NCBI GenBank assembly: GCA_014905635.1
Contig: JABVCE010000002.1
Span: forward strand, 2,356,001-2,420,000
Length of the DNA stretch: 64,000 nt
Source: Scenedesmus sp. PABB004
Taxonomy: Eukaryota
Reading direction: 5' to 3'
Shown: positions 9,640-63,729 of the stretch, piece after piece
How positions within the stretch are numbered: position 1 is the first letter of the stretch
How the letters are laid out: every line of letters starts with the position of its first letter
Made by a program: the position numbers and the translations under genes
The notes under the pieces: generated by a model
Told to the model about the DNA's origin: nothing
What the model saw: the letters and a program-made list of their open reading frames with translations, nothing else
Databases searched by the model: none

Positions 9640-12027
<2,388 letters not shown>

Positions 12028-28101: not shown

Positions 28102-31100
28102 ATGGCGTCAGGCGCCAGCCTGATGCAGATAGACCGCTCCGCCACCGTGGCCTTCGCGCCCGGCGGCCCGTTCCTCGCTGCGGGGACGGTGGCGGGGGCC
28201 ATCGACATGTCGTTCAGCACCAGCAGCGTCCTGGAGGTGCGGCGCCCGCCCCCGCCCGCCCACGCCGGCGCCCGGGCCCGCACTGACGGCCTCGGGGAAA
28301 CGCCGCAGGTGTTCGGCCTCGACTTTGCGGCCAGCGACGCGGGGCCCTCGCTGGCGGGCAGCGTGCCCGTGCAGGAGCGCTTCCACCGCCTCGCGTGGGG
28401 CGCCAAGCCGTCGGAGGCGTCGGGCCTCGGGGTGCGGGCGCCGGGGGCCGGCCGCGCGCCGCCGCGGCGCCGCGATCGCGCGCGGCGCACGTGCGACCGC
28501 GCCGCGCCGCTGCTGCCGCCGCGCCGCGCCGCAGTGGGGCATCCTCGCCGGCGGCCTGGCCGACGGCTCCATCTGCCTCTGGAACCCGGCCGCCATCATC
28601 GAGGGCCAGGGCGGCAGCGCGCTGCTGTCAAAGATGCAGAAGCACACCGGCGCGGTGCGCGCCGCGGCAGCGGCGCGGCGCCGCCGCCGCGGCGGCGACG
28701 GCGGCGGGCACGCGGCGGCGGGCGGGCGGGCGCCGACCGGGGCCGCGCCCGCACCGCCCGCACCGCGCGCACCACGCCGCGCGCAGGTCAAGGGCCTGGA
28801 GTTCAACGGCTTCAGCCTCAACCTGCTCGCGTCGGGCGCGGCCGACGGCGAGCTCTGCATCTGGGACGTCGCCGCGCCGGCGCAGCCCTCGCTCTACCCG
28901 GCGCTCAAGGTGCATGCGGCGCGCGCTGCCAGCGGAGCGGCGGCGCCGGCGGCGCTGGTGGCAGCACCGGCACTGGCAGCGGCGGCGGCAACCGCCGCGG
29001 TTGTTGGAGCGGTTGCGCGCCGCGCGGGCGCAGCGGCGGGCGCCCACGCGCGCGCGCCCGCGCGCCGCGCAGGGCCCCGCCGCGGGCGCGGCTGCGGGCG
29101 CCGCGCCGGAGATCACCTACATCAGCTGGAACAGGAAGGTGCAGCACATCCTGGCCTCCACGCAGGTGCGGCGCGGGCTGGCGCGGGCTGGCGACGGTTC
29201 AGCGCGGGCGCCGCGCGGCGGCAGCGGCGGCGGCGGCGCGGCGCGGCGACGGCGCGCGGCCCCCCGTCCTGCGCAGGTCGACGGCGCCACGGTGGTGTGG
29301 GACCTGAAGAAGCAGCGGCCCGTCATCACGCTCAAGGACCCCAACAGGTGCGGCCGGGGGCGCGCCGCGCACCGTGGCACCGGGCCAGCGCGCGCCCGGG
29401 CGCAGCCGCCCGCGCACGCCCCGAGCCCGCCCGCGCGCCTGCCCGCGCGCCCGCCCCCGCGCCGCGCAGCCAGCGGCGCTGCTCGGTGCTGCAGTGGAAC
29501 CCGGACGTCGCGACGCAGCTGGTCGTCGCGAGCGATGACGACCGCAGCCCCACGCTGCAGATGTGGGACCTGCGCAACAGCATGTCGCCGGTCAAGGAGT
29601 TTGTGGGGCACACCAAGGTGTGCTCCGGCGCGGCCGCGCGCCGGCGCCAGGCGCGGCGACGGCGCGCAGCGCGCCGGCGCCAGGCGCAGCGACGGCGCGC
29701 AGCGCGCCGGCTGCCTCGCCGCCGCCCGGCGCGGCCCGTCGACGCCGCCGTGCTGCCGCCGTCCATGCGCTGTCGTGCTGTCGCGCAGGGCGTGCTGGGC
29801 ATGTCGTGGTGCCAGCAGGACCACAGCCTGCTGCTCTCGTGCTCCAAGGACAACCGCACCATCTGCTGGGACGTCAACACGACCGACGTCGTGTGCGAGA
29901 TGCCCAGCCAGGACAACTGGAGCTTCGACGTGCAGGTCCGGCGTGAGGCGCGGCCCGCGGGCACGCGCCCGCAACGCCGCGCGCCCCCTGGCGACGCCCC
30001 GCCGACGCGGGCGCCGCCGCGCGCGCCGCCGTGCCGCCGCGCAGTGGAGCCCGACCGTGCCCGGCGTGTTCTCGACGTCCACCTTCGACGGCAAGGTCTC
30101 GCTCTGCAACGTCCTCTCCTGCACCAGCGGCAGCAGCGTGGAGACGTTCAACGCTGACTTCAGCGTCTCAACCGCGCTGGGTGCGCGGCGGCGCCGCGGG
30201 CGGCCCCAGCAGCAGCAGCTGTGCGGCGCAGCGGCGCCGGCCCCGCGCCGCGCCGCCCCTGACGGCGCCGCCGCCGCCGCAGGCGACGTCAAGCCTTTGA
30301 AAAAGGCGCCCACGTGGCTGCGCCGCCCCGCGGGCGTGTGCTTTGGCTTTGGCGGCCGCCTGGTCAGCTTTGCCAACCACAAGCAGCAGGTCACCGACCC
30401 CATGTCGGGCCAGGTGCGGCCCGTGGACACCGGCACCATCAGCGTCACCCAGGTGGTCACGGAGCACGAGCTGGTGGCGCACAGCGAGGCGTTCGAGTCT
30501 GCCGTCGCGGGGCGCGACCGCGCCGCGCTGCAGGTGCTCGCGCCGCGCCGCCGCTGGCCGCTGGCGTGCCCTTGCGCCGGGCGGCCCGCACCGCCGCGCC
30601 GCCCGCGCCGCGCTCGCGCCGACGCCGCGCCCCCGCCGCGGCGCCGCCGCCACGCCCGCCAGGAGTTTTGCGCGGGCAAGGCCGCCGCCGCGGCGGGCTT
30701 GGGCGCGGGCGAGGAGGCGGAGACGTGGACATTCATGGGGGTGCTGTTTGAGGACGACGCGCGGCGCCAGCTGCTGGCCAAGCTCGGCTTCAGCGAGGCG
30801 CTGCTCGCCGGCGCGGGCGGCGCCGGCGCGCCCGCCGACGGCGGCGCGCCGGGCGGCGGCCCGGCGCGCAAGTCGAGCGTCGGCCTGGCGGAGCAGCAGC
30901 TCACGTCGGCGATGGAGCAGCTGGGCGTCGGCGACGGTGCGCGCGCCGAGCTGGCGCGCGCGCGGCCCGGACGCGCCCGCCGCCGCGCTCACTGCGCTGC
31001 CGCCGCGCGCCGCCCCGCGCCGCCCCGTGCTGCCGGCTGCGGCGCCGCAGGCAAGCCTGTAATCGAGGTGCCCGGCGGCGAGGACTTTTTCAACCAGGCC

Positions 31101-32386
31101 GACGACCCCCACGGCTTCTTCGACTCGCTGCCGGACCAGCCCTCGGGCGACCACGGCGCCGCGGCGGCGGCCGCGGTGGCCGCCGGCGGCGGCCTCGCCG
31201 GCACGAGCAGCCTCGGCGGCGGGGGCGGGTCGATGGGCGCCGCCGGCCTCAGCAACGGCGGCGCGAGCGAGCCGGCGACGCCGATGGGCGACCCCAACCA
31301 CGTGCCCGAGGGCGCGGAGCGGGTGCGCGCCGCGCCCGGCCGGCGCCCGCCGCCCATCGGCAGCCGCACACAGCAGCGCCACGCCGCGATCGCTCTCTCG
31401 CGCGCGCGACGCCGCCTCACCGCCACCGCTGCGGGCAACCGCCGCACCCGCAGGAGGACGACATCCAGAAGGCCATCTTTGTGGGCAACTATGAGGGCGC
31501 GGTCGACACCTGCCTCAAGGTTTTAGGGTTCAGGGGGCGCCGCGCGCGCCGCCCGGCGTCCGCCGCCGCAGCCGCGCTGCCGCCCCCGGCCGCGCCGGCG
31601 CGCCGTCGCCGACCCGCCACCCGCCGCGGCCCCGCCGCCGCCAGGTGGGGCGCCTCGCGGACGCGCTGCTGATCGCCAACATCGGCGGCGGGGAGCTGTT
31701 CAAGAAGACCATGGCCCGCTACATGCGGCGCAACCCGCGGCCCTACATGGCGGTGCGGCGCCGCGGCCGCGCTGGCGCGCGCGTGCTGGGCGCGCACCGC
31801 ACGCACGCACGCACGCACGCACGCGCCGCGCCGCGCCACGCGCCGCCGCCGCGCCGCGCCGCGCGCGCCAGGTGATCAGCGCGATGGTCGACGGCGACTA
31901 CATGTCGCTGGTCAAGACGCGCCCCGTGGGGCAGTGGCGCGAGACGCTCGCCGTGCTCGCGACCTACACCGGCGCCGACCAGTGGGCGGGCCTCTGCGAC
32001 GCGCTCGCGAGCCGCCTCGGCCAGACCGGCATGCTCCACGCCGCGTCGCTCTGCTACATCTGCGCCGGCAACGTCGACCAGGCGCGCCGCCGCGCACACG
32101 CACGCGCCGCCGAGCTGCCGAGCCCCGAGCCCCGCCGGGCGTCGCCCGTCGCCCTGTGCGCCGCGCCTGCGCCGTGACGCGCCTCCGCGCCCTCCGCGGC
32201 GCGCAGGCGGTGTCGTACTGGTCGCGCGCGGTGCGCGGCGGCGGCGGCGTGGAGGCGCTGCAGGGCGTGATCGAGAAGAGCGTCGTGCTCGGCCTCGCGA
32301 CCAACACCGCCACCGCGTCGCCGAGCCTCGCCGACCTCGTCACGACCTACGCCAGCACGCTCGCGACGCAGGCGCGCGCGTGAAAA

Positions 32387-32425
<39 letters not shown>

Positions 32426-34270
32426 GCTGCGCCGCCTGCGCGCGCGCGCCGCGCGCCCGGCCGACCGCACGGCACACCCGCCTCTGCCGTCGCAGGGCCG
32501 GCTGGGCGCCGCGCTGCGCTACCTGGACATGGTGCCGGGCGAGGCCTCCACCAGCGTCGCGGTGCTGCGCGACCGGATCTTCAGGTGCGCCGGGGCGGGG
32601 ACAGGGGGGCTCGTCGCGCCCTGCCCCGAGCGCAGGCGCCCAGGGCCGCGCCGACGCTGACGCTGCCGCCGCCGCACCGCGCCGCGCAGGAGCGGCGCGC
32701 CGAGCCTGCCCGCGGACGCCGCGGCGCCGCCGTTCCCGTTCCAGGCGGAGGACATCCGCCCTGCGGTCGACCAGGGCGCCGCCGCGCAGGCGGCCGCGGC
32801 GCAGCAGCAGTATGCCGGCTACGGCGCGCCCGCGGCGGCGGCGGCCAACCCGTACACCGCGGGCGGCTACGGCGCCGCCGGCGCCGCGCCGCAGCAGCAG
32901 GCTGGCGGCTACGGGCAGCAGGCCGGGTACGGCGCACCTGCGGCCACGCAGGGCGCCGGCGGCTACGGCGCCGCGGCGGCCGGCGGCTACGGGCAGGCCG
33001 CCGGCGGCGGCGGCTACGGCGCCGCGCCGCAGCAGGCGGGCGGCTACGGGCAGCAGGCCGGCTACGGCGCACCTGCGGCCGCGCAGGGCGCCGGCGGTTA
33101 CGGCGCCGCGGCGGCCGGCGGGTACGGGCAGGCCGCCGGCGGCGGCTACGGCGCGGCGGCCGGCGGCGGCTACGGCGGCTACGGCGCGGCGCCGCAGCAG
33201 CCCGCAGCGGCGGTGTACCAGCCAAAGCGCGGCGGCGCCGTGCCGGCGCCGCCGCCGCCGCAGCCGTCGTTAACGCCCGCCGCGCCCGCGGCGGCTGGGC
33301 CGCCCGGCGGCGCCGTGCCCGTGCCGGGCGCGTTCACACCGGCGCCCGTCGCGCCGGGCAGCGGCGGCATGGGCGGGGCGCAGACGACCGTCGCGCCGCG
33401 CGCGGCGTTCACGCCCACGGCGTCGGCCACGGTCGCGCAGCCGCCGCCGGCGGCCGCGGCGGGCTACGGCGCGCCGGGCATGGCGCCGCCGCCCGTGGCC
33501 GGCCCGCACGGCTCCATGGCGCCGGGCGGCATGCTCGGCGGCGCGCCGGGGTCGGGCAGCTACGCGCCTGCGGGCATGGCCGGCGGCATGGGCGGCGGCA
33601 TGGTCGGCGGGCTCGCGCCGCCGCCGGCGCACGCGGCGCCGCCGCCACCGCCGCCGGGGCCGCCCGCGCACATCAGCATGGCCACGGCCGACGTCAGCAA
33701 GGTGCCCGCGGACCAGCGCGGCGTGCTGGGCAGCCTGGGCAACCTCTTCAACGCCTGCATGCCCCTCGCCAACACGCCAGGTGCGTGTGTGTGTGTGTGT
33801 GTGTGTGTGCGTGTGCGTGTGCGTGTGCGTGTGCGTTGTGCGCGCCGCCCGGGGCTGGGCCCGCCTGGCGGCGCCTGCCGGGCGCCGCTGCCGCCGGCTC
33901 ACGTCGCCGCCGGGCGCCGCCGACCTGCAGCGCGCAAGCGCGAGATGGATGACAACAGCCGCCGCATCGGGGGCCTCTTCTGGCGCCTCAACGAGGGCCA
34001 GGTCGCCCCGCACGTGGTCGCGAAGCTGCAGGCGATGTGCGCCGCGCTCGACGCCGGCAACTGGCCCGCCGCGCAGCACATCCAGGTGCGGCGCGCGGCG
34101 CCGGCCGGCCGCGCGGCGCGCCCGCGGCGCGGCGCGACCGCGGCGGCAGGGGGGCTGACGACGCCGCCGCCGCGCCGCAGATCGAGCTGACGGCGAGCGA
34201 CTGGGACGAGTGCGGCGTGTGGCTGACCGCGCTCAAGCGCCTCATCAAGATCCGTCAGTCCATGGGCTGA
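28102..34270 (+). CDS. SEC31: COPII coat protein Sec31, multi-exon
   Basis: LAAGTVAGAIDMSFSTSSVLE; WD40 repeats (RFHRLAW, LASGAADGELCIWD, ISWNRKVQHILAS, LQWNPDVATQL); KKAPTWLRRP; Pro/Gly-rich region; C-terminal KREMDDNSRRIGGLFWRLN...WLTALKRLIK. Confidence 0.95.
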
Positions 34271-43719: not shown

Positions 43720-45146
43720 ATGAGCGGCGGCGGGCGCGGCCGGCGCGGCGGGCGCGGGCGCGGCGGTGGCGCGGCGGGCGGGCGGGGGCCGCCGCCAGCA
43801 GTCGACTTCAACCTCTACGCCTCGCCGGGCTTCCCCATGCAGGGTGCGCTGATGCGTCGCGGCGGGCCGCGCGCGTGGCGGAGGGGGGGGGGGGGGGGAG
43901 GGGCGTGCTGCGCGCGCGCGGGGCGCGCTGCGGCGCCGCGCGCGCCGCCCGCGCCGCACGCCGCCAACCACCCAACCGCCGCTGCTGCGGCCGCCGCTGC
44001 TGCAGGCTGCCCGGCGCAGGTGCGCCCGGCCCCCGGCATGCCCGACGTGCGCCGCCTGACCATGGTGCGCGAGCGCGCCGCCCGCCGCCGCCCGCGGCTC
44101 GCGCGGCCCGCCGCGCAGCGCGCCGCGCCGCGACGCGCGCGCCTCACTCGCGCCTGCCTCGCGCCTGCCCCACGCGCGCGCAGCCGGAGCGCCAGACGCT
44201 CGGCGACATCCTCTGCTGGTTCGCGGCGACCGCCATGCTGGAGCCGAGCGCGCGGCTCGTGCTGTGGCAGGGCACGCGCGAGGACAAGGCCTGGCTCGCC
44301 GCGTTTGCCCAGGAGACGCTGCCGCAGCTCGAGGTCAGCACGTACGAGGCCGGCCCCTCCGCGCGATACACCCAGTTCAGCCTCGCGCCCGACAGCGTGC
44401 CGCCGCCCGAGGCCGCCGCCGCGGCGGTCGCGGCGGTCGCGGCGCCCGGCCCGGCGCCGGAGCAGGCGCCGGCGCCGGCCGCGCCGGGCGCGTCGGCGGC
44501 GGGCGCGAAGGACGCGGCCGCGTCGGCGGCGGCGCACACCAAGGAGGCGCTGGCGGAGGCGGGGCACAAGGCGGGCGAGGCGGCCGCCGCGGCAGCGGAC
44601 AAGGTCAGCAAAGCGGTCGCCGCCACGAGCGCGCAGGTGCGGCGCGGCGCCGCGGCCGTCGCGCGCGCCGTGCCCGCGGAGCGGGCGCCCGCGCGCGCCT
44701 GCCCGCGCCTGGCCGCCGGCCGGGCCCCGCCGAACGCACGCCCGCGCCGCGCCGCGCCGCGCGTGCGCGCGCAGGCCAAGGAGGCTGCCACCGCCGCGGT
44801 CGGCAAGGCACACGGCGTGGCCAGCGCGGCGCACGCCTCGGCGGCGGCTGCGGCGGAGAAGGTCGCGCAGGCGACCAAGGCCGCCGCCGCGTCCGCCGAG
44901 GTGAGCGCCAAGGCTGCTGGCGAGCAGCTCAATGGCGCCGCCGTGCTGGCGGCCGAGCGGGCGCGCTCCTGGGCCGGCGATGTGCAGGTGCGCGGCAGCG
45001 GCTCGCGCACGCGCGGCCGCGGGGCCGTGGCCACAGCGGCGCGGCGGCCCCCGCGCCGCGCCGGCGCCGCGCCGCGCCGCACCGCACCGCACTGCGCACC
45101 GTCGCGCCGCGCACCACCCGCGCCGTGCTGCTGGCGCCCGACCCCT

Positions 45147-45226
<80 letters not shown>

Positions 45227-45364
45227 GCGTGCCTGCAGGCGGCGGTCACCGGCGAGGCCGGCCCCAACGCGCAGATGCTGGCGATCGGCGGCGCGACGGC
45301 GGCGGTGCTCGCGGTCGCGGGCGTCGTGGTGGGGCTGCTGCTTGGCGGCAAGCGCCGCCACTGA
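43720..45364 (+). CDS. Uncharacterised tail-anchored protein: RGG N-terminus, globular domain, LEA-like Ala/Lys helical repeats, C-terminal TM
   Basis: MSGGGRGRRGG...; QTLGDILCWFAATAMLEPSARLVLWQG; AKDAAASAAAHTKEALAEAGHKAGE; TM AAVLAVAGVVVGLLLGGKRRH*; plausible GT-AG introns. Confidence 0.65.
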
Positions 45365-45770
45365 GCTCGGCTGCGCGGCGCGGCGCGGGGGCGTGATTGA
45401 TCTTTTTCGACCTAGCGACTGGGCTGCAGGGGGCCGCCGGCGGCGGGCGGGTAAGCGGCCGGCGCGGCACGCAGGCGTCCGCGCTTGCGCAGCGCCGCGG
45501 GCGGCGCTCGGCGGGCGGCGGCGGGGCCCCGAGGAGCAGGCCACCGCGTGCATCAGCTGCAGCAAGGCAAATCGCGAGCGCGGCACCACCCCCGCTGTCT
45601 CTCTAGAGAGCAGGTCCTACGAGCCGGTGCCGCTGCGGTTCGGCGCAAGATCCTGGGCTGCAGCGCGCTCGCCCCGCCCTCACACCCGCCGCAAAGCACG
45701 AAGCGCCAACGCCCGGACCACCCCTCCCGCGCGCCGCGACCCTCTGCACAGCGACACCGCGAGACCTGCG

Positions 45771-46444
45771 ATGAGGACGTCCATCTCAACGCGCGCGCGC
45801 CCGGCCGCCGCAGCGCGCCCCGGGCAGCAGCGCCTGGCGGCGCGTCGTGCCGTCCTCACGCGTGCTGTCGCGGAGAAGCAGCAGCAGAAGCAGCAGCAGC
45901 GCGCCGCGGCGGCGCCGGCAGCAGCGGCGCAGGCAACGGCGCCCGCTGGCGCCGCCGCTGGCTGGGCGGCGGCCATCGCGGCGTCGGCTCCGGTGCTGGC
46001 CGCGAGGGCGGACGAGGCCGAGGACGCGGTGGCCAACACCGTGGCCGCGCCGGCGTGGCTCGGGTACGTCGTGCTGCTGTCGCCGATCCTGCTCTACGGC
46101 ATCTTCAACATCTATCGCAGCCAGGTCAACCCGCAGGCCAAGTGGGGCGACTTCCTGGTGCGGCGCGGCGCGACGCGGGTGGGCCGGCCGACTCTGGGCG
46201 GCGGGCGCCACGTGCGCGGCGGCGGCGTGTGCACAGGGGGGCGCGGCGCTGCGCGGTGCGCCCACCTCTTGCGGGCCGAGCGGGAGCGCGGCGGTGCTGC
46301 CGTCCGTCCCCTCACCGCCCCTCACTGCTCCTCCCCTCACCGCCCCCTGCCCCCCCCCCCCCCTACGCACAGTTCATCTGCGTGGGCGTCGCGGTGGTCG
46401 CCAACCTCGTGTCCATCGTCGGGTTCAAGGTTCGCCTGTTCTGA
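45771..46444 (+). CDS. Small 2-TM protein, probably thylakoid/plastid-targeted
   Basis: Transit peptide MRTSISTRARP...VLTRA; AxA-like LAARA; TM WLGYVVLLSPILLYGIFNIY; intron 46158-46372; second TM FICVGVAVVANLVSIVGF. Confidence 0.75.
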
Positions 46445-47102
46445 GGCGATCCCTGGGGCAGAGGGGCACTGGGGCAGCTGGCACAGCAGCAGGAGAGCGG
46501 CGGGAGTTGCGGGCGGCGCGCGGCCGGCCCGTGCGTGCGCGGCGCGCCGCTCGGCGCGATTTTGTTGTAACGCGCGCAGCCGGCGAGCTGCTGGGCGCCC
46601 CCACGCGGCGCTCGGCAAGGGCGCGCGTGGGCACGTCGCCTGGGCCAGCCTGTGTGGCCGATCGGCGCGCCACCGCCGCAGCGGTCAAACAGCGGCCGTC
46701 CGTCGAGCTCCCTGCGCCTCTCGCTTCGCCTCCTTCCGCGCCCGCCCGGCGTGCGCTCCTGGAGCCCCTGCGCTCCCCCGTCCGCGCTCCCCGGTCCGCG
46801 CTCCCCGGCCCCAGGCCGCGAGGCGCGCAGCGCTGCGCCGCCCGCCGCCGCCTGCCCGCGGGCTGGCGCCCTGCGGACCATGTGAGCACGGCTGGGAGGC
46901 CGAGCCGCGGTCTTTGAGGCGGGGGCGCGCCCGGCAGCCGCCCCGGCGCGGCGCGGCGCGGCGCGGCGCGGCGCGCCGGAGCCGGCGCTCACGCGTCGCC
47001 CCGTCTGCGGGGCGCAGGTGAAGCGGCCCGGCCCGCCGCCAGCTCCTCCGCACCCCAGCTGCGGCGCACGCCGGCTCCCGGCCAGCGGCGGCAGCGGGCA
47101 GC

Positions 47103-47821
47103 ATGGCCGGCAGCGGGATGCGCGACGGCGGCGGGGCCACGACGCACGAGGCGCTCGAGCTCTCCTTGTCCGCAGACGGCGGCGGCGAGATGGCCAGCTG
47201 CAGCGTCACGCTCGGCGGCGCCGTGGCGCCGGCCGCACTGGCCAAGGGCGGCGGCAAGGGCGAGTTGCAGCTGAGCGGCAAGGGCGACGGTGCTGCGCCG
47301 CGCGCGGCGTTTGAGCCCTCCCACGGCATCAGCACGGCGGGTGCGCGCCGCGCCGCGCCGCGCCGCGCCGGGTCCGGCCGGGGGCCGCCGCGCGCACGCG
47401 TCGCTCAGCGCGGCCGCCGGCCGCACGCGCGCGCAGAGGCGGACGCGCTGCGCGAGCGCTGGGGCCGCAACGAGCTGCAGGAGACGTGCAAGTCAAAGCT
47501 GCTCGTCTTTGTGGAGCTGGTGCGAGCGCTGCCCCGCTGGACCACTCACTCACTGCCTGCGCGCGCGGCGCAGCCCGTCGCTCGCTCGTCGCGGCTGCCA
47601 GCGCGGGCCCGGCCCACGCCGCACCTCGCCGCCGCCCCGCTGCCGCGCCACGCCGCGCTCGTGCGCCCTGCGCCGCCGCGCGCCGCGCAGCTCTACGCGC
47701 CCATGCCGGTCATGATCTGGGTGGCCTTCATCATCGAGATGAGCCTGCGCAACTGGCTGGACGGCAGCATCCTGCTCGCCATCCAGATCATAAACGCGCT
47801 GCTCGGCTGGTGCGGAAGCGG

Positions 47822-47852
<31 letters not shown>

Positions 47853-50800
47853 GGCGGCGGCGGCGCGCGCGGGGGCGGGCCAGCCGACGGCGCCGCGGCG
47901 GCGCAGGTGGGAGACGATCAAGGCGGCGGACGCGGTCGCGGCGCTGCGCGCGTCCCTCAAGCCGACCGCGACGGTCAAGCGTGACGGCGTGTGGCAGAAC
48001 ATCGACGCCACGCTGCTCGTGCCGGGTGCGCAGCCGGCGAGGCCCGCGCGACGGGCCCCTGCCTGCGCGGCGGCGCGGCCCAGCGGGCCCCCGCGTCAAG
48101 CGCCGCCGCGCCGCGCCGCGCAGGTGACATGGTGCTGCTGGCCGCGGGCTCGGCGGTGCCCGCCGACTGCCTGCTCAACGGCGGGCGGCTCGAGGTCGAC
48201 CAGTCGGCGCTGACGGGCGAGAGCCTGCCGGTGACCATGTACAGGGGCGACTCCGCCAAGATGGGCTCCACTGTCACGCGCGGCGAGGTGGAGGCGACCG
48301 TGGAGGTGCGCGCGCGCGCGACGCGCGACGCGCGACGCGCGGCCCCCGCCGCGCTGCCGCCGGCCGCCGCCCGGGTGCGCCGGAGAGCGCTGAGCGCGCC
48401 GCGCCCGCACGTCCTCAGTCCACTGGCGCGCACACGTTCTTCGGCAAGACCGCGGCCATGCTGCAGGCCGCCGACGGCGGCATCGGGCACCTCGCGCAGG
48501 CGCGGCGCCGCGCCGGCCGCGCGCGCTGTCCCGCCCACCGCCCGCCCAGCGCGCGCGCTCGCGTCGTCGCCGCCGCGACGGGCCGCCGCCGCACGGCGCC
48601 GCGCCGGCTCCTCCCCTCCCCCTCCACCCCTCCCCTCCCCTCTGCGCCTGCCGCGCGCAGGTGCTGATGAAGATCATGGGCGTGCTGGTAGTGGTGAGCG
48701 TGCTGCTCTGCGCCGCGATGCTCATCTTCCTGACCGCCCACGGCGGCGAGTCGTTTGGCTCGGCGCTCGAGTTTGTGGTCGTCGTGCTCGTCGCGAGCGT
48801 GCCGATCGCGATTGAGGTCGTCTGCACCGCCACGCTCGCGCTCGGCTCGCGCGAGGTGCGGCCCCTGCGCGCGCGCAGCCCGCCCCGCGCCCGGCCGGCC
48901 CACCGCCGCGCCGCGCTGTCGCGCCGTCGCGCCGCCGCGCCGCCCGCGTGCAGTTGTCGGCGCACGGCGCGATCGTGACGCGGCTGGCGTCGATCGAGGA
49001 GATGGCCGGCATGAACATGCTCTGCTCCGACAAGACCGGCACGCTCACGCTCAACAAGATGGTCATCCAGGCGCGCACAGCACGCGCAGCGCGCGCAGCA
49101 CGCGGCACAGCACACGCAGCATGCGGCGCAGCACGCGCGCGGGGGGCTGGCCGGCGCTGGCCGGCCCCGGGGCGCTGGCGAGCGGGCGCATCAGGGCGGC
49201 GGCCGCCGCCGACGCTGGCCGCCGCCGCACGCGCGCCGCGGCGGCGCGGCAGGACGACTGCCCCCTCTATACCCCTGGCGTGACCAAGGACGACGTGCTC
49301 GTCGCGGCGGCGCTCGCGGCCAAGTGGCGCGAGCCGCCGCGCGACGCGCTCGACACGCTGGTGCGGTGCCACGCGTGCGCGCGCGCCGGGCCGCCCGCGC
49401 CCCGGGCTAGCCCGGGCGTTGGAGCCAAGCGAGCGCCGCCACGCGTTGCGCGCAGGTGCTGGCCAACAGCGGGCTCGACCTGCGCCGCCTGGACGCGTAC
49501 GAGCAGCTCGACTTTGTGCCGTTTGACCCGACCGTCAAGCGCACCGAGGCGACGCTGCGCGGGCCCGACGGCGCGACGTTCAGGACCACCAAGGGCGCGC
49601 CCAACGTCATCGCCGCGCTGCTGGGCGACGACCGCGAGGACGTGGCGCGCCGCGTCGACGCCAAGGCGCGGCGGCGGCGGCCGCCGCCGCGCCGGCGCAC
49701 CTGCTGCCATCGCGCGCGGCGTGCGGTCCCTTGCCGACGCGCGCGTGCCGCTGCCGCACGCACCACGGCGCAGGTGCACGAGCTCGGGCGGCGCGGCATC
49801 CGCTCGCTCGCGGTCGCGCGCACCGACGCCGGCGGGTCCTGGCGCCTGCTGGGCATCCTGACCTTCCTGGACCCGCCGCGCCCCGACACCAAGGTCACGA
49901 TCGAGCGCGCGATGGAGTACGGGGTGGACGTCAAGATGATCACCGGCGAGTGACCGCGGCAGCCGCCGCTCTCCTGTGCTCTCTGTCTTTCTCTCTCGCG
50001 TGCGCGCAGGCGCGCCGCCCGAGCCCGCTCCTGGGCCTGAGGCCGCGCGCCGCCGCCTGCCGCTGCCCGCCCGCGGCGTCCAGGCGACCATGCCGTCATC
50101 GCCAGGGAGACGGCGCGCGCGCTGGGCCTGGACGCGAGCATCCAGGACGCGGCGGGCCTGCCGACGATGCCTGCAGACGGCAAGGTCCCCAAGGACCTGG
50201 GCGCGCGCTACGGCGAGATGATACTGCAGGCAGACGGCTTTGCGCAGGCGCGCGCCGCGCGGCGCGGCGGCTGCGGGCTGGCGCTGACCGCCCGGCCCCG
50301 CGCGTGTTGACCGCCCCGCCCCGGCCCGTTGACCGCCCGGCCCCGCCCGTTGGCCGCCCTCACGCCGCGCAGGTCTACCCCGAGCACAAGTACCTCATCG
50401 TGGAGGCGCTGCGCCAGGCGGGCTTTGCGGTCGGCATGACCGGCGACGGCGTGAACGACGCGCCCGCGCTCAAGCGCGCCGACGTCGGCATCGCCGTGCA
50501 CGGCGCCACCGGTGCGCGCCGGGCGGCGCGGCACGGCCATGCGCGGTGTGACGGGCCGGTAGCGAGCGAGCGCCCGCGCCCCACGCCCCACGCCCCACCC
50601 GGCGCCTGCCCGTCGCGGCGCGCAGACGCGGCGCGCGCGGCGGCGGACATGGTGCTCACGCGTGAGGGCCTGGGCGTGATCGTGACCGCGATCAAGGTCA
50701 GCCGCGCCATCTTCAGCCGCATGAAGAACTTCATCAACTACCGGTGAGGGGCGTCTGTGGTTTGTGTTTGTGTGTGTGTGGGGGGGGGGGGGGTAGCGCA

Positions 50801-52978
50801 CTGCGGAGACCTGCGCGTTCTCGCCCCGCCGTGCCGCGCCTGACTCGCCGTGCACCGCCGCGCCCCTGCACCGCGGCGTACAACCGCCAGCATCGCGTGC
50901 ACGCTGCAGCTGGTCGTGTTCTTCTTCGTCGCCGTGTTTGCGCTGCAGCCGGCGGCGTTCCGCGCCGGCGACCCGGCCGCGCCGCTGTTCTTCAAGATGC
51001 CGGTGCTGATGCTCATCCTTATCACCGTCCTCAACGACGGCACCCTCATCAGCGTCGCGTACGACCACGTCGTGCCGAGCCACGCGCCAGAGAAGTGGAA
51101 CCTCAAGGCGCGGCGCCCGAGGGAGGGGGCGGCGCACGGCCGAGGGGGGGGGGGGGGCTTGGGCGTCTCGTGACCCGAGCCCACCCGCGCGCGGCGCGCG
51201 GCGGCGCGGCGCCGCAGGTGCTGTGGGCTGTGTCGACCGTGCTCGCCGCGGTCGCGATGCTCTCCAGCACGCTGCTGCTCTGGGCGGCGCTCGACTCGGG
51301 CAACCCGCGCGGCGCGTTTGCGGCCTTTGGCCTGTCCCACATCCAGTACGACCAGGTGGGCGGGTGGTGGGTGTGCGGGCGGGGCGCCCGGCGGCGCCGC
51401 CGGCGCGGCGCTGTGCACGTGCGTGGCGCGGCGGCGACCGAGGCCTCGTCGCCCTGCGCACACTGAGCCGCCGCTGCCGCTCCTGGCTGCTCATGGGCAC
51501 CCGCGGCGGCCGCCAGGTCATCACCCTGATTTACCTGAAGATCAGCGTGAGCGGTGCGCGCCGCGCCGCGGGGGCCGGGCCCGGCGCGGCATGGCCGCGA
51601 GCGGAGCGCGCACGCGCTGCGCCGCCCAGCACACCCGCCCGTCGCGGCGCCCGCCCGTCGCGGCGCGCAGACTTCCTCACCCTCTTCAGCGCGCGCACGC
51701 ACGACGGGCCCTTCTGGAGCCAGCGGCCGTCGCCCATCCTCGTGGCCGCGGCGGGGGTCGCGCTGGGCGTGTCGACGGCCATCGCCTGCGCCTGGCCGCC
51801 GTCGCGGCCCGACGGCATCCCCACGCGCGGCCTCGCGCGCGGCGACGACTCGCGCCTCTGGGCGCTCTGGGTGTGGATCTACTGCCTCGTCTGGTGGGTC
51901 GTGCAGGACGCGTGCAAGGTGCGCGCGCCCACGGCGCGCGCGCGCGCCCCGAGGCGGCGCCCTGCGCGCCGCGCTGCGCAGCACCCTACGCGCCGCCGCG
52001 CCACCGTGCCGCCGTCGCGGCGCAGGTGGGCGCGTACTGGGTGATGCGCAGGTGGGTCGTCCGGGGACGGGGGACGCCTGCAGCGCGGCCGCGCCGCGTG
52101 CTGCCGCCGGCGCGCCCACGCCCACCGCCATGTACGCACACGCCATGCCGCCGCCGCGGCGCAGGTGGAACCTTTTCCAGATCAACACCGCGCGGCTGGT
52201 CAACAACCGCGGCGCGCAGCGCCTCACGGACAGGCCGCTCGCGCGCGCGAGCGCGGGCCTGGTCGAGGTGCGCGCCGGCCGGCCGCGCCCGCCCGCCCGC
52301 CCGCTGCGGCGGCCGCGGCCCAGCACCGCCCCGCTGCCTGCCGCCTGCCGCGCCGCAGAGCAAGCTGGTGGAGCTCAAGGCCGACCGCGCGCTCGACTCG
52401 GTGGCGCGCATCGCCGCCGCCGCCAACCGGCGCCGCACCGAGCCCGAGCCGCTCGCCGCGCAGCGCATGCGCCGCGTCACGCAGGCGCGCCGCCGCCGCC
52501 GCGGCCGCGTGGGAGCGCGCCGCGCTGCTGCCAGCGCGCGCCTTGAGCGACCCCTTGCCGCCGCCTGCCGCCGGCGGCGCCGCAGGAGTTGCAGGTCATG
52601 CGTGACGCCGCCAGGCAGGAGCATGCGGGCCCCGCCGCGGCAGGGCGCGAGGCCGCGGCCGAGCGGGCGCGCCTCGACGCCACCATCGCCCAGGCGCGCC
52701 CGCGGCGGCGGCCCCGACTGGCCCCGCCTGGCCTGCCTCGTGGTGGGGCGCGCCTCACCCGCGCCGCGCCGCGCGCCGTCCGCCGCGCGCAGATGGAAGA
52801 GGCGGTCGCGGCGGCGGACGGGGAGGACCGCGGGGAGCTGCAGGCGGCGCTGGCGGGCATGCGCGCGACCGCGGCGCGCTTCGCGGCGGTGGAGCGGCTC
52901 GTGGGCGCCGAGGGAGCGGCGGCGCAGCGTCGCGCCGGCTCCCGGCGCAGCCTGGCGGGCCGGCTGTCGGCGGCGTAG
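47103..52978 (+). CDS. Plasma-membrane-type P3A H+-ATPase, 23 exons
   Basis: [30 protein letters not shown] (phospho-Asp), [41 protein letters not shown]; all 22 introns can be placed in frame. Confidence 0.96.
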
Positions 52979-53441
52979 GCCGCAGGTCGGCCTGGGGGGG
53001 ACGGGGGGAGGGGAGACGGGGAGGGCGGGGCGGGGCGGGGCAGGCCAAGCGCGCCGGGCAGGGCAGCGCGCGCGTGACTCGAGGAGGACGGGGACGAAGC
53101 ACCTGGGTTTTCACATGACGACGCACGGGCAGCACCGCGGGCCGCGTGTTCTGGGTTTGGCGCGATCGCGCGACACACAAGGCTGCTGCATCCAGGGGGG
53201 GCATCGACCGCAGGACTGGTTGACCGACGAGTCAGACGTCACGGCCGACACTGTTAAGCTTCTGCCTGCTGACGGCGGCCGCCCCTGTGAGCCCCCGCAG
53301 GAGTGCCGGCTCTGCAACCACACACCACCGCCGCCTCTTCGCTCCGCTCGACGCGCGGCAGACGGCCGACGCGGCCGCCGCTCTGCGCACCCCGCACCGC
53401 GCGCCGCGCGCCGCTCTCACGCGCCGAGCAGCGCCGCAAGG

Positions 53442-55700
53442 ATGCTTGGCCGCAGGGCAGCGTGCGCTGGGCCCCGGGCCGCGGCGCGGCCTGCCGCGCG
53501 GCCGGGCGCTGCCGGCCGCGGGCAGCAGCGGCGGCGCGTCGTCGTGAGGGTGAGCGCGCCCGCGGCGTGGCGCCCATTGGAGTGCCGGGATGCTGCTACT
53601 CGGCGGCCAGGGGCGCCGCTGGCAAGCGCGAGGCGCGCGAGCTCTGGCGAGCAGGGCAGCAGCAGCGCCTGGCCGCGCCGCGGATTGCGCGCCAGCAGCT
53701 CTGCCGACGCCTGGCATGGGCAATTAAGCATGCTTACAGCCCACCCGAGCACCGGCGCCGCTGCGGCGCCGGCGGCGGCGGCGGCGCCGGCGGCGGGGTC
53801 GCTGCTGCGGCCGGGGGCCGCTGCCAGCCGCGGCCGCGCCGCCTGCGGCGGCAGCAGCGGTGGGCTCCTCTGCTTGCCGCCGACGCGGCTGGCACGCGAC
53901 CGCCCCGCAGGACGCGCCCAAGACAGGGCAGCACCAGGTCGACGCCGACCTGCGCGACGAGGCGCTCGCGCGCTTCTTCACGCCCGCCCAGGCGCCGCGC
54001 ACGAGCCCCACGACCGGCGGCGTGAACAACGTGGTCAACTACGTGGACACCGCTGACGGCAAGAAGTTTGTCCTGCGCATCTACAACAACGGCAACAAGA
54101 CCGACAAGGCGCGGCGCGCGGGGCAAGCGGGCGGGCAGTGGCTGGCGCTGCGGCGCCGCAAGCGGCGTGCAGGGGGGCCCGCGGCGTCACCACGCACCCA
54201 CCGCCCGCAGGTGCGCACGGAGCACGCCATCCTGGAGCAGCTGGGGCAGCAGGCGCTGAGCTTCCGCGTCCCGCGCGCGCTGCCGGCGCTCGACGACGGC
54301 GCGCCGTTCGTGGTGCTCAGCAGCGGCGCGGCGGCGTGCGTGTTTGAGATCATCCCGGGTGCGCCCCCCCCCCCCCCCCCCCCCCCCCCCCCGCGCAGCT
54401 CGACGCGCGCGGAGCGCGCCGCGCCCGGGGCGCCCGGGGCGCCGCCGCCGCCAGGCGCAGGCGCAGGCGCCCGAGCGCGCGCCGCTGCCGCCGCCGCCGC
54501 CGCGCGGCCCGCAGGCAGCCTGGCAAAGACGACGAGCCCGCAGGAGGTCGGCCGCGCGACGGGCGAGCTCTGCACCGCGATGGGCAAGGTGCGCGCGCGC
54601 GCCGCCGCCGCCGCCGCCGCCGCCGCCTCGCGTCGCGCGCGAGCTCGCCCCGCACACGCCCGCACGCTCTCCACGCTCGCCCGCTCTCCTCCTCGCACGC
54701 CGCGCGCCGCGCCCGCCGCGCCGCAGGTCGCGCTCGACCACACGCCGCCCGTCCCGCCCTATTACGACCTCTTCAACGTCCACGCTGCGATTGCCGGCGA
54801 CGCGGAGCGCTTCTACGCCGAGGCGGCCGCCAACCCCGCGCTCGAGCCCTGCCGGCCGTCGATCGACTACCTCGTGGGAGAGATCAGGGCCCTCGCGCAG
54901 CGCCTGCCGGCGTTTGGCCGCGACGCGGGACTGCCGCGGCAGCTCATCCACGGCGATCTGCACTACGACAACGTCATGGTCCTCGGCGAAACCGTCAGCG
55001 GGCTGCTGGACTTTGAGTTCTGCGCCGAAGACGCCAGAATCATGGTGCGGCGGCCGGCGCAGGCCAGCGAGAGGCCGCAGCGGCGCGAGAGGCCGGAGCG
55101 GCGCGAGGCCCTGCCGCGCGGCGCGCCGCCCGGCGCGCCCACGCCGCCTACCGCCTGCACGCTCCCGCCGTTGCCTCTTCAAACAACCACACGCGCGCAG
55201 GAGCTCGCCGTCGCGCTGTCCAAGTACGTGGGCGAGGCCGACCCGCTGCCGCTGATCGAGGCCTTTGTCGAGGGCTACTGCGCGACCGCAAGCCTCACCG
55301 ACCGCGAGGTGGAGGTCCTGCCCGACTGCATCAACCTGCGCATCTTCAGGCAGGCGCTGCTGCGGCGCCTGGCACACGCTGCCGCGGCGCGGCGCGCCGC
55401 CGCGCTGCGCCGCCGCGCTGCGCGCGCTGCTGCGGCACTGCGCCGCGCCGCGCCGGCGGCGCCCTGGCGGGCCCGCGCCGAGTGCCCCCGCGCCATCACC
55501 GTCGCCGCCGCCGCCGCCGCAGCAACGTAATCTACTTCACCGGCCGCGCGCTGGCGGGGGAGGACAGCATTGACTCGCTGGCCAGCCGGGCGGACAGCTA
55601 CGCGACGCGCGTGCGCTGGACCAACGCCAACCGCGCCGCGATCGTCGACGCGGTGCGGCGCCGCGTGTGCGCGCCCGCGACCGCCGGCGCGGCGCAGTGA
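53442..55700 (+). CDS. APH/choline-kinase-fold phosphotransferase, type II homoserine kinase-like, with transit peptide
   Basis: GGVNNVVNYV, KFVLRIYNNG, EHAIL, IHGDLHYDNV, LLDFEFC, ELAVAL; Arg/Ala-rich N-terminus. Exon structure 5' of 53911 is uncertain. Confidence 0.8.
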
Positions 55701-56111
55701 GCGGTCGCAGCGGGACTGGCGCCGGGCGGCACGGCGCGCCGAGCGGTCGGCCGTCGCCCGGTTGAGTTGCACATGCACCGGTGCACCGCCGCGAGCGGCT
55801 GCCGCGATGCAGCCGGCACCGTGAGAGAGGGGGAGAGGGAGAGGGGGGAGAGAGAGAGCGCGGCGCGTGTGAATTGAATGGGCTCAACTCAGACCACGGT
55901 CAACCCCACAATTGAATAGCGTTCGCAGCCCCCGCGCGCGCCGCCGCGCCCGACGTCTGGTCAACGCCGAGCCCCCGCCAGTGCTGCCGACCGACCGACC
56001 GAGCCCCGAGCCGGTTGCATTGAACAATTGTTCAGTGCCGTCGCTGCAACGAGCCGCTAGTGCTAGTGCCCCCCACCCGCCCCGCACGGGCTCCGGCGCG
56101 GCGGCCGTCAC

Positions 56112-58824: not shown

Positions 58825-59002
58825 CGCGCGGGCTCCTCCCTCGCGCGGGCGGGCTGCCGGGCCGGGGGCCGCGCTCCTGGGGTGGTGGAATGCCGGGCGG
58901 CGGCGGGGCGATCGCAGCCGGCCCAGATGCGCGGGGCAGGGCGACGGTCAAGGCCGGTCAAACGCGGGCGCGCTCGCTCAGTTACGATCACCGCCCACCC
59001 GC

Positions 59003-61568: not shown

Positions 61569-63729
61569 TCAGGCGCGCCCGTCCCACATCGCGGCCGACG
61601 CGGCGGCCTCCCAGTCGCCGTCAAAGCCGGGCGGCGGCGTGCCCGCGCCCGCGGCGATGAGGTGCGCCGCGACCGCGGCGGTGAGCCTCACCGACACGCC
61701 CCGGATCGCGCTGAAGGGCGGGAAGAGCTCGCCGCGCGCCGCGTCGCCAGCGCTCGTCATGCCCGCGAGCGCCTCGGCGGCAACGAGGAAGGCGTCGCCC
61801 GGCACGGCCGCCGCGCGCGTAAGCACCGCCGCGGCGCCGATCGCGGGGAAGACGTACGCGTTGTTGGCCTGCGCGGGGTGGCGCTCCTGCCCGCCGACCA
61901 CGACGGGGTCAAAGGGGCTGCCGCTCGCAAAGAGCGCGCGGCCGCCGCTCCACGCGACCGCGTCGGCAAACGTGCACTCGCTCAGGTGGGTGGGGTTGGA
62001 GAGCGGGAAGATGAGCGGGCGAACGTTGATCGACGCCATCTCCTCGACCACCTCGCGGGTGAACGCGCCGCCGGCCGTGCTGACGCCGATGAGCACGCTC
62101 GGGCGCAGCGCGCGCACCGCGGCCAGCAGGTCGGGCCCGAGCGGCCCGCCCGCGCCCGCGTGCGCCCAGGGGCGCTTGTGCGCGGGCAGGGCCGCCGCGT
62201 CGGCGCGCTCCGCGCAGATGAGGCCCCGGCTGTCCATGAAGTGGCACCGCGCCCGCGCGTCGGCGAGGCTCAGCGCCTCGCCGCGGCGAGCCGCGGCCTT
62301 GACCATCGCCGCCGCGACGAGCTCGCCGATGCCCGTGCCCGCCTCGCCCGCGCCGAGGAAGAGCACGCGCTGCTCGTCGAGGCGGGGCCGCCCCGTCGCG
62401 CGCAGCGCGCTCAGCACGCCCGCGAGCGTGATGCAGGCGGTGCCCTGGATGTCGTCGTTGAAGGAGCAGCACGACGCGCCGTGCCGCGCCAGCAGCCTGC
62501 GCACGCGGGCGTGCGCGCGGCGCTCGGCGGCGGCCGGGCGCGCGCCCGCGCCCGCGGCGGCGCCCGGCCGCCGGGACCCTCTCTGCCGGCCGGCCGCCCG
62601 CGGGCGCCCGCGCGCGCGCGCGCCTGAACGCGTTGCTGCTGCCAAAGTCCTCCCACTGCAGCAGCACGTGCGGCTGCCACGCGCGCAGCGCGCCCACAAA
62701 CTCGTCGACAAACGCGTCGTAGTCGGCGCCGCGCGCGCGCGGCGCGCGCAGCCCCGGTAGCGCGGGTCGCCGCGCAGCGCCGCGTTGTCGGTGCCGACGT
62801 CGAGGCAGATGGGCAGGCAGACCGCGGGGTCAATGCCCGCCGCGGCAGTATAGAGCTGAATCTTGCCCTCGCTGATGCCCATGCCGTTGGCGCCCAGGTC
62901 GCCCAGCCTGCCGCGGTGTTCGCAGGGGGGGCGGCGGGCGCGGCCGCGCGCGCGGCGTCGGCCGCCGCGCCTGCAGGCTGGCGCTGTGCGCGCCGCGGCC
63001 CGCCGCGCGCGCGGACCCGAGGATGCGCTCGCCATCCGTCACGACCGTCACCCTCACGTCCTGCTGCCGCCACGCGCGCAGCTTGGCCAGGATGGCGCCG
63101 CGGTCGGCCAGGGAAATGTAGAGGCCCTGCGCCGCGGCGGTGTGCGTGTGACGGCGGCGGCGGAGGGGGCGCGCGCCGTGGCGGACGGCCGCTCGCCGCA
63201 CAGGCGGCGCGCCTGCGTGGCGATGGGCAGCGTGTGGTACTTCTGGCAGGCCTCGCCCACGGTGGGCGTGTAGATGTAGGGCAGCAGCTCCTCGGTGTGG
63301 CGCAGCAGCGCGGCGTAAAACGCGCGCGGGCCGGCCGCCTGCAGGCGCCGGAGCAGCACGTAGCGCTCCAGGCCGCCCGCGGTCGCGCGCAGGCGCGCGA
63401 GCGCGGCGTCGGCGGCGGCGGCGCCCGCTGCGGACGCGCCTGCGGGAGGCGCGCGCGGCGGGCGCGGCCGGTGACGCCAGGGAAGCGCCGCCCGCCGCGG
63501 CCGCGCTGCGAGCAAGGGGCCCACACCTCCGCAGGAGGAGGCGGAGATGTCGATGACGCCGCTGGCCCGCTCCTTGGCGGCGGGCGCGTCCGCGCGCGCC
63601 GGCGCCGGCGCCGCGGTCGGGGCGTCTGCCCGCAGCAGGCGGCGGCGGGTTGGAGCGGTGTCGGGGGCGGCCAGCACGCAGCGCGCAGGGGCTGCCGCGC
63701 CACGCACCCGCGACGAGGACCGCCTCCAT
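61569..63729 (-). CDS. NAD(P)-dependent malic enzyme with an apparent 1-nt frameshift at ~62753
   Basis: LPYIYTPTVGEACQ, VVTDGERILG, LGDLGANGMGISEGK, LDVGTDN, QWEDF, FNDDIQGT, FLGAGEAG, IFPLSNPT, QANNAYVFP. The start codon is tentative. Confidence 0.92.

What the first reader, a model, noticed from the sequence alone, without database searches (positions are those of the whole stretch)
47103..52978. Exceptionally high frequency of GC-AG introns
Anchoring exons on conserved H+-ATPase sequence gives 22 introns, of which 8 need GC donors (48500, 49071, 49666, 49946, 50248, 51108, 52485, 52694), mostly AG|GCGCG. More GC donors occur at 3680, 4212, 5518, 6251, 6774, 15290 and in Sec31. GC-AG introns are around 1% in most eukaryotes. 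The pattern suggests relaxed or altered 5' splice-site recognition, with exonic AG compensating, and standard gene predictors would mis-annotate these genes.
Basis: partly seen in the sequence, partly recalled or inferred. Interest (0 to 1): 0.7.

Follow-up and report, generated by a model that had tools for sequence, protein, structure and literature searches.

The report
Frequent GC-AG introns in GC-rich alga
About a quarter of the introns that can be pinned down in this stretch of an extremely GC-rich green alga start with GC instead of the usual GT, which is real but is the same thing already described in other GC-rich algae.

Summary
The window matches Scenedesmus sp. PABB004: a protein so named by NCBI maps letter for letter onto it. 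A published table gives that genome 78.5% GC.

The proton-pump gene at 47103-52978 has 22 introns and yields an in-frame 1077-residue protein. All 8 stated GC donors sit at the stated coordinates. Homology confirms 6 of them. The 2 in the unconserved tail have only coding-statistics support.

Three more genes add 6 GC donors. In all, 12 of 45 homology-anchored introns (27%) are GC-AG. When all 16 donor dinucleotides were allowed at equal cost, 37 consensus introns came out as 26 GT, 11 GC and 0 others.

GC donors sit in a stronger context than GT donors. CAG precedes 9 of 12 against 10 of 33, and the next exon starts with G in 12 of 12 against 19 of 33.

No RNA data or whole genome was available. 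High GC-AG use is already published for Emiliania huxleyi (about 56%) and pelagophytes (14-17%). I read this as a new member of a known kind, with nothing pointing to altered splicing machinery.

The parts
47103..52978 (+). Plasma-membrane-type (P3A) H+-ATPase gene: 23 exons, 22 introns, 1077 aa
   Evidence: In-frame spliced CDS with full-length alignment to H+-ATPases at 55-58% identity. The spliced aligner reproduces the conserved core.
48500..48660 (+). GC-AG intron 6 (cag|GCGCGG...CGCAG|gtg), phase 0
   Evidence: Best of all GT/GC-AG combinations, +30 over the best GT. Called by 4 of 4 references with all 16 donors allowed. No gap at the junction in 3 of 3 references; P0023 has one gap upstream of it.
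49071..49252 (+). GC-AG intron 8 (cag|GCGCGC), phase 0, just after the [14 protein letters not shown] motif
   Evidence: +19; 4 of 4; ungapped.
49666..49773 (+). GC-AG intron 10 (aag|GCGCGG), phase 0
   Evidence: +10, the smallest margin. Called by at least 4 of 6 references. Did not reach 3 of 4. Ungapped RVDxxxxELGRRG spacing.
49946..50083 (+). GC-AG intron 11 (ccg|GCGAGT), phase 1, inside the MITGDH motif. The only GC donor without exonic AG, and the only one with +3 to +6 GAGT.
   Evidence: +39; 4 of 4.
50248..50372 (+). GC-AG intron 12 (cag|GCGCGC), phase 0
   Evidence: +78; 4 of 4.
51108..51217 (+). GC-AG intron 15 (aag|GCGCGG), phase 0
   Evidence: +29; 4 of 4.
52485..52585 (+). Putative GC-AG intron 21 in the unconserved C-terminal tail
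   Evidence: Not resolvable by homology. Codon log-likelihood is +0.70 and +0.30 for the flanking exons and -0.61 to -1.15 inside. The 24 nt up to the next GT score -1.38.
52694..52792 (+). Putative GC-AG intron 22: 99 nt, in frame, no stop, so retention cannot be excluded
   Evidence: Not resolvable by homology. Codon log-likelihood in frame is -1.05, against +0.30 for both flanking exons.
28120..34264 (+). Sec31 gene: 16 consensus introns in conserved parts, 14 GT and 2 GC
   Evidence: PDB Sec31/Sec31A matches. Spliced alignment to 8 references.
32082..32206 (+). GC-AG intron in Sec31 (cag|GCGCGC)
   Evidence: 8 of 8 references, 4 of 4 with all donors allowed, ungapped junction.
32372..32495 (+). 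GC-AG intron in Sec31 (cag|GCGCGC)
   Evidence: 8 of 8 references, 4 of 4, ungapped junction.
9768..12027 (-). DUF4336 gene: 6 introns, 4 GT and 2 GC. In the public model P0146 it is fused to the downstream RRM gene.
   Evidence: P0146 maps exactly with 8 introns. Homologues.
11257..11382 (-). GC-AG intron in DUF4336 (cag|GCGCGC), also used by the public model P0146
   Evidence: 6 of 6; 4 of 4.
10937..11136 (-). GC-AG intron in DUF4336 (cag|GCGCGG), also used by the public model P0146
   Evidence: 6 of 6; 4 of 4.
61584..63446 (-). Malic enzyme gene: 3 anchored introns (GC, GT, GC) and a 1-nt frame break
   Evidence: Pfam Malic_M and malic. Reading of the sequence..
63127..63212 (-). GC-AG intron in malic enzyme (cag|GCGCGC)
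   Evidence: 8 of 8 references, 4 of 4, ungapped junction.
62497..62623 (-). GC-AG intron in malic enzyme (cag|GCGCGC), phase 2
   Evidence: 8 of 8 references once the region is cut after the frame break. The GT alternative at 62629 deletes the conserved FR of NAFRLL and costs about 24 units per reference. 4 of 4.

Best explanation
These are ordinary U2-type spliceosomal introns whose obligatory T at donor position +2 has been replaced by C. The host is a green alga whose nuclear genome is extremely GC-rich. About a quarter of the anchored introns have made this change.

Shown here: the boundaries, the frequency in this window, and the difference in context between the two donor classes.

Inferred mechanism: GC-biased substitution pushes T to C at +2. 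The change is tolerated where the rest of the site pairs well with U1 (and probably U5) snRNA. That means a CAG on the exon side, G at +1, GCG at +3 to +5, and a G opening the next exon. GC donors therefore accumulate in the strongest contexts, while weaker contexts keep GT. No change of the machinery is needed.
For: Boundaries.
- 12 GC-AG introns in 4 genes give junctions with no gap at the splice point in 3 of 3 references each.
- With all 16 donor dinucleotides allowed at equal cost, consensus introns are 26 GT, 11 GC and 0 others.
- Decoy donors all score below GC.
- A GT-only model loses score in every gene: 11080 against 12895 for the pump, 15765 against 17011 for Sec31, 6605 against 7574 for DUF4336, and 7065 against 7256 for the second part of malic enzyme.

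Frequency: 12 of 45 anchored introns.

Context.
- CAG precedes 9 of 12 GC donors against 10 of 33 GT donors (p=0.009).
- AG precedes 11 of 12 against 19 of 33 (p=0.03).
- +3 to +5 is GCG in 11 of 12 GC donors. GT donors have 91% G, 85% C and 91% G at those positions.
- The next exon starts with G in 12 of 12 against 19 of 33 (p=0.005).

Host.
- The window is 72-83% GC throughout.
- An identical 645-aa protein is named Scenedesmus sp. PABB004 by NCBI. That genome is listed at 78.5% GC (table passage in PMC12571836).
- The public model P0146 itself uses 2 GC-AG introns.

Precedent.
- E. huxleyi: 56% GC donors among 241 hand-mapped junctions, 9 GC junctions confirmed by RT-PCR, attributed to high GC (passages in PMC4028052).
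- Aureococcus and Pelagomonas: 14-17%, against 0.32% in the low-GC relative Aureoumbra (passages in bioRxiv 10.1101/2024.10.30.620910).
- Chlorophyta lack the minor spliceosome (passage in PMC11347168).
Against: No transcript evidence: no RNA run was listed, so splicing at these sites is inferred from protein homology only.

Only 4 genes of one 64-kb window were counted, and the share differs between genes (6 of 20 in the pump, 2 of 16 in Sec31).

The context statistics rest on 12 GC introns and several tests were run, so p values of 0.005-0.03 are suggestive, not firm.

The direction of change (GT to GC) and its cause (biased substitution) were not tested, because no relative's genomic DNA was available.

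The assembly has at least one 1-nt frame break, so it is not error-free.
Confidence: 0.85

Rival explanations
1. The splicing machinery itself has changed. A U1 snRNA 5' end or a U6 ACAGAG box adapted to a G-Y-G-C-G donor would make C at +2 as good as T.
For: The donor consensus GTGCG[C/G] / GCGCG[C/G] departs at +4 and +6 from the textbook GTRAGT (recalled). The GC share is high at 27%.
Against: GC donors need a stronger exon context than GT donors. That would not be expected if C and T were equivalent. GT is still 33 of 45 although GT dinucleotides are about 6 times rarer than GC in the window. No snRNA gene lies in the window, so there is no direct evidence either way.
Confidence: 0.08
2. 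Nearby GT donors are really used, and the proteins carry small insertions or deletions relative to their homologues.
For: For intron 10 (49666) the best GT alternative costs only about 10 units. For the two tail introns GT alternatives (52509, 52740) score the same by homology.
Against: For 12 introns the GC boundary gives a junction with no gap at the splice point. The GT alternatives delete or insert residues in conserved motifs such as VIQ after LTLNKM, FR of NAFRLL, or 21-22 extra residues. GT-only alignment loses a whole exon in Sec31. The unbiased run never chose another dinucleotide.
Confidence: 0.03
3. The C at +2 is an assembly or base-calling error for T.
For: The assembly has a 1-nt frame break at a G run in the malic enzyme gene and long homopolymer runs, so it carries some errors.
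Against: That error is an indel at a homopolymer, not a substitution. Twelve independent T-to-C errors falling exactly on donor +2, and preferentially behind CAG and before an exon starting with G, is not what random error gives. The only public run that shares words with the region gave no cover of a GC donor, so this could not be checked directly.
Confidence: 0.02
4. The GC-AG introns are copies of a spreading intron-generating element (introner-like), as in Aureococcus, Pelagomonas and Micromonas.
For: Pelagomonas putative introner elements carry both GT and GC donors (passage in bioRxiv 10.1101/2021.10.25.465678). Exonic AG plus intronic AG could look like a target-site duplication.
Against: All-against-all BLASTN of the 45 introns gave only short matches of CG-rich low-complexity sequence and no family. 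Lengths vary from 72 to 200 nt.
Confidence: 0.03

Closest known systems
GC-AG introns of Emiliania huxleyi (Feldmesser et al. 2014, PMC4028052; passages read)
   Same: A GC-rich alga in which a large share of donors are GC while the acceptor stays AG. The authors blame high genomic GC. Predictors that prefer GT mis-place junctions.
   Different: A haptophyte at 65% GC with GC donors in the majority (56-60%) and RT-PCR proof. Here it is a chlorophyte at about 78% GC, with 27% of 45 anchored introns and no RNA evidence.
GC-AG introns of the pelagophytes Aureococcus anophagefferens and Pelagomonas calceolata (bioRxiv 10.1101/2024.10.30.620910; 10.1101/2021.10.25.465678; passages read)
   Same: 14-17% GC-AG, ascribed to 63-70% genomic GC. 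The low-GC relative has 0.32%.
   Different: Stramenopiles, where part of the introns are introner elements. No intron family was seen here.
The rare GC-AG class of U2-type introns in animals and plants (0.3-2% per the passage; the stronger flanking consensus is recalled, not seen in a paper here)
   Same: Same termini, and the same compensation by a stronger remaining donor consensus.
   Different: The frequency here is more than tenfold higher. The +3 to +6 consensus is GCGC rather than the recalled AAGT.
Dinoflagellate GC/GA donors with a G after the AG acceptor (recalled from the Symbiodinium genome literature; no paper read here)
   Same: Non-GT donors coupled to G at the first base of the next exon (12 of 12 here).
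   Different: No GA donors were seen here (0 of 37). Unrelated lineage and much lower GC there.

Membership tests
U2-type GC-AG spliceosomal introns | GC at the 5' end and AG at the 3' end, at boundaries whose removal restores an uninterrupted conserved reading frame | tested here: met
   12 introns in 4 genes
U2-type GC-AG spliceosomal introns | Actually removed from the transcript | not testable with these tools
   No RNA holder listed and no genome held. The only indirect hint is that the public protein P0146 is built with two of them.
U2-type GC-AG spliceosomal introns | Stronger consensus at the other donor positions than in GT introns | tested here: met
   CAG before the donor in 9 of 12 against 10 of 33. 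+3 to +5 is GCG in 11 of 12. Small sample.
U2-type GC-AG spliceosomal introns | Not U12-type (no extended TATCCTT-like donor box; the motif is recalled) | tested here: met
   None of the 45 donor contexts printed has it. Chlorophyta lack the minor spliceosome (passage in PMC11347168).
Genomes with high GC-AG usage (E. huxleyi, Aureococcus, Pelagomonas) | GC-AG at 10% or more of introns genome-wide | tested here: inconclusive
   12 of 45 in four genes of one window.
Genomes with high GC-AG usage (E. huxleyi, Aureococcus, Pelagomonas) | High nuclear GC content | tested here: met
   Window 72-83% GC. Genome 78.5% in the table of PMC12571836.
Introner-type intron families | Many introns are copies of one element with shared sequence | tested here: not met
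   Only low-complexity matches among the 45 introns.
P3A plasma-membrane H+-ATPase (the gene that carries the finding) | Full-length similarity, including the DKTGT phosphorylation motif and the [13 protein letters not shown] hinge | tested here: met
   55-58% identity over about 850 residues to proteins named H+-ATPase. Motifs are visible in the spliced translation.

The most novel reading that the evidence does not exclude
In what may be the most GC-rich eukaryotic nuclear genome on record, GC-AG has become a second regular intron class with its own rule: CAG|GCGCG at the donor and AG|G at the acceptor, mostly phase 0. This would show step by step how GC-biased substitution erodes the last obligatory T of the splice signal, and which compensating contacts allow it: exon pairing with U1 and U5, and perhaps co-evolved snRNAs. 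The 12 of 12 coupling of a GC donor to a G at the start of the next exon would then be a real cross-intron requirement rather than a small-sample effect.
Probability: 0.2. Interest if true: 0.55.

Novelty: new member of a known kind. Interest (0 to 1): 0.35.

Why it matters
The finding extends a known link, that high genomic GC goes with many GC-AG introns, to a chlorophyte at the extreme of eukaryotic GC content. It also gives a concrete context rule that can be tested.

In practice, gene models for this genome and similar ones must allow GC donors. A GT-only alignment lost an exon of Sec31 and deleted conserved residues in three other genes. The published annotation has only 7,092 genes (table in PMC12571836). 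It contains at least one fused model in this window.

Tried and rejected
- Whole genome: none is held for this window. Genome-wide donor counts and U1/U6 inspection were therefore impossible.
- Rfam at gathering threshold on the window: 0 matches.
- Sequencing runs: no RNA holder listed. One DNA run (X1, a freshwater metagenome) shared 0.05 of the words. Laid on 44001-64000 at 85% likeness, 1123 of its 1209 records fitted only partly. The joints had 21-31-nt sides and looked like other GC-rich organisms. One 230-nt contig was identical at 51971-52188, which holds no GC donor. The run gave no information on +2.
- My first junction scoring was flawed, because a fixed window around a moving junction rewards deletions. 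It was replaced.
- One script was killed by the sandbox and rerun in simpler form. One script failed on a coding error and was fixed.
- Pfam: 142 of 529 stop-to-stop ORFs were picked by codon periodicity. Of these, 116 were scanned. The 26 overlapping the pump gene were left out.
- The gene at 2982-6909 has no Pfam match. Its internal 2.57-kb duplication could not pin 3680, 4212, 6251 or 6774 to the base, because the introns are conserved between the copies too. Gaps of 2 and 8 nt behind 4212/6774 fit a non-coding stretch. A GTGGGC 36 nt upstream of 4212 and a GTGAGC about 17 nt upstream of 3680 remain possible GT donors.
- Strand asymmetry of AGGCGCG inside the four genes was weak: 19 sense against 11 antisense, p=0.2.
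- No clear branch-site motif was found.
- The spliced aligner invents short GC 'introns' in unconserved regions, for example 47699-47743 and 52422-52463, and around the malic frame break. Only introns agreed by most references were counted. A GC call in Sec31 at 28661 was dropped as a slid version of GT 28655.
- Earlier scan notes: none for this genome. Three notes on Ostreococcus splice signals are unrelated.
- Literature. 'GC-AG introns' with 'haptophyte' found 0 papers. 'GC-AG' with 'Scenedesmus' found 2 papers, both on cyanobacterial cultivation by title (listing only). 'PABB004' found 15 papers, of which I read passages of one (PMC12571836), which has 0 occurrences of 'intron' or 'splice'. 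Searches listed no paper on GC-AG frequency in a chlorophyte. Subscription journals and preprint supplements are not covered.

Full report
What is there. The window is 72-83% GC in every 2-kb bin. The stretch 47103-52978 encodes a plasma-membrane-type H+-ATPase. With 22 introns the exons join into an in-frame 3234-nt CDS. Its 1077-residue product aligns in one piece to H+-ATPases at 55-58% identity over about 850 residues. Thirteen of these 14 follow an exonic AG.

Are the GC donors real boundaries? No RNA data could be had and no genome is held, so the test is protein homology. I enumerated every in-frame GT-AG and GC-AG pair within 90 nt of each boundary and scored the resulting peptide against 12 references. 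The model's boundary was the best choice at introns 1-19. At intron 20 a distant GC combination scored marginally higher (140.9 against 140.2), and the model there is GT either way. The six GC donors 48500, 49071, 49666, 49946, 50248 and 51108 beat the best GT alternative by 30, 19, 10, 39, 78 and 29 units. The two GC donors in the unconserved C-terminal tail (52485, 52694) cannot be decided this way.

For those two tail donors I used a codon model trained on 1235 verified codons against the 45 introns. It scores the tail exons as coding (+0.70, +0.30, +0.30 per codon) and the two putative introns as non-coding (-0.5 to -1.15). The short stretches up to the nearest GT also score as non-coding (-1.38, -1.51). 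Intron 22 is 99 nt long and open in frame, so retention is not excluded.

Chance. In DNA where GC is 21% of dinucleotides and GT 3.7%, a homology method that admits GC could find it by accident. A spliced protein-to-DNA aligner that I wrote does invent short GC 'introns' in unconserved stretches. Two controls answer this.
- Decoy donors on the pump gene, 6 references: summed score was 11080 for GT alone and 12895 for GT+GC. It was 11832, 12561, 11801 and 11810 for GT+GG, GT+CG, GT+CC and GT+GA.
- All 16 donor dinucleotides at equal penalty, 4 references per gene, counting introns agreed by at least 3: 37 introns came out as 26 GT, 11 GC and none of the other 14.

Other genes. Pfam on 116 ORFs located an RRM gene, a DUF4336 gene, an SMC-like gene, a WD40 (Sec31) gene, a subtilase, a kinase-like gene, a metacaspase and a malic enzyme.
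- Sec31 (28120-34264, confirmed against solved Sec31 structures) has 16 consensus introns. Two are GC-AG with 8 of 8 references (32082-32206, 32372-32495). A third GC call was only a slid version of a GT intron and was counted as GT.
- DUF4336 has 6 introns, 2 of them GC-AG with 6 of 6 references.
- Malic enzyme has 3 anchored introns, 2 of them GC-AG with 8 of 8 references. For the second of these the GT alternative removes the conserved FR of NAFRLL.

All 12 GC junctions have no gap at the splice point in 3 of 3 references each. The census is 45 anchored introns: 33 GT and 12 GC, or 27%. None of these six could be pinned to the base.

Whose genome. A 98-residue DUF4336 exon found a 645-residue protein that NCBI names rbm8a of Scenedesmus sp. 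PABB004. It maps letter for letter onto the minus strand from 12027 with 8 introns. A comparative paper lists that genome at 39.8 Mb, 78.5% GC and 7,092 genes, while most Sphaeropleales are near 56% GC (table and text passages of PMC12571836). The public model itself uses the two GC-AG introns of DUF4336. It also runs on through a 492-nt 'intron' into the neighbouring RRM gene, so it is a fusion. No protein holding the pump's exon 10 or the malic enzyme's large exon at 100% identity was returned. That is weak evidence that these genes are missing or mis-modelled in the public set.

How it most likely works. GT and GC donors share one consensus, G at +3, C at +4 and G at +5, so the site reads G-Y-G-C-G. 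GC donors differ in their surroundings.
- CAG precedes 9 of 12 GC donors against 10 of 33 GT donors (p=0.009), and AG precedes 11 of 12 against 19 of 33 (p=0.03).
- The single GC donor without exonic AG (49946) is the only one with GAGT at +3 to +6.
- The next exon begins with G in 12 of 12 against 19 of 33 (p=0.005).
- 10 of the 12 GC introns are phase 0.

This is the pattern expected if an ordinary U2-type spliceosome tolerates C at +2 only where the other contacts are strong. The pairing scheme of U1 with -3 to +6 is recalled knowledge, not tested here. The inferred cause is GC-biased substitution at one of the few obligatory T positions. The direction of change was not tested. Chlorophyta lack the minor spliceosome (passage in PMC11347168), and none of the donors has a U12-like box. 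The introns are not copies of one element.

Comparison with what is known.
- Emiliania huxleyi (65% GC): 56% GC donors among 241 hand-mapped junctions, 9 GC junctions confirmed by RT-PCR, GT-biased predictors blamed for wrong models, and high GC proposed as the cause (passages of PMC4028052).
- Aureococcus and Pelagomonas (63-70% GC): 14-17% GC-AG, against 0.32% in the 39% GC relative Aureoumbra. The usual range is quoted as 0.3-2% in plants and animals (passages of bioRxiv 10.1101/2024.10.30.620910).
- Pelagomonas introner elements carry both donor types (passage of bioRxiv 10.1101/2021.10.25.465678).

I found no paper on GC-AG frequency in this strain or in another chlorophyte (searches; open-access papers and preprints only). 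The finding is therefore a new member of a known kind: a correct and well-controlled observation, the phenomenon and its usual explanation already published, and part of it already built into the public annotation.

Limits. There is no transcript evidence. Only four genes of one window were counted. The GC-donor sample for the context statistics is small. The snRNAs and the relatives' introns could not be examined.

Noticed in passing
62750-62762 (- strand), malic enzyme gene: The reading frame slips by one base at a run of 4 G (DPRYRG in one frame, then LRAPRARGADYDAF in another) with no room for an intron. It is either a homopolymer error of the assembly or a real frameshift.
   Followed up: partly
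38986-42972 (+): Five tandem copies of an 896-bp unit, 92.5-100% identical, at 73% GC. Each holds an intronless ORF for a roughly 127-residue hydrophobic protein with no Pfam match. Tandem Repeats Finder missed the array because its longest period is 500.
   Followed up: partly
8304-12027 (-): The public protein named rbm8a of Scenedesmus sp. PABB004 (P0146) joins the DUF4336 gene to the neighbouring RRM gene through 492- and 465-nt 'introns'. This looks like a fused gene model.
   Followed up: partly
3689-3740 (+): A run of 52 G just behind the candidate GC donor at 3680. A run of 29 C lies at 54364-54392. Either could be a real G-quadruplex-prone tract or an assembly artefact.
   Followed up: no
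2982-6909 (+): A gene without a Pfam match has an internal duplication of about 2.57 kb (3297-3628 matches 5861-6196 at 89%, and 3897-4340 matches 6462-6908 at 84%). The duplication includes the introns, so candidate GC donors 3680/6251 and 4212/6774 are paralogous pairs.
   Followed up: partly
all 45 anchored introns: The exon after the acceptor starts with GT (mostly GTG) in 17 of 45 introns, although T is scarce in this DNA. Exon junctions therefore often read AG|GT, like the classical proto-splice site (counted by eye from the list).
   Followed up: no
47820-47866 (+), intron 3 of the pump gene: A (GGC)n run fills most of this 97-nt intron, and a GT-repeat plus G run sits in intron 14 at 50760-50793.
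   Followed up: no
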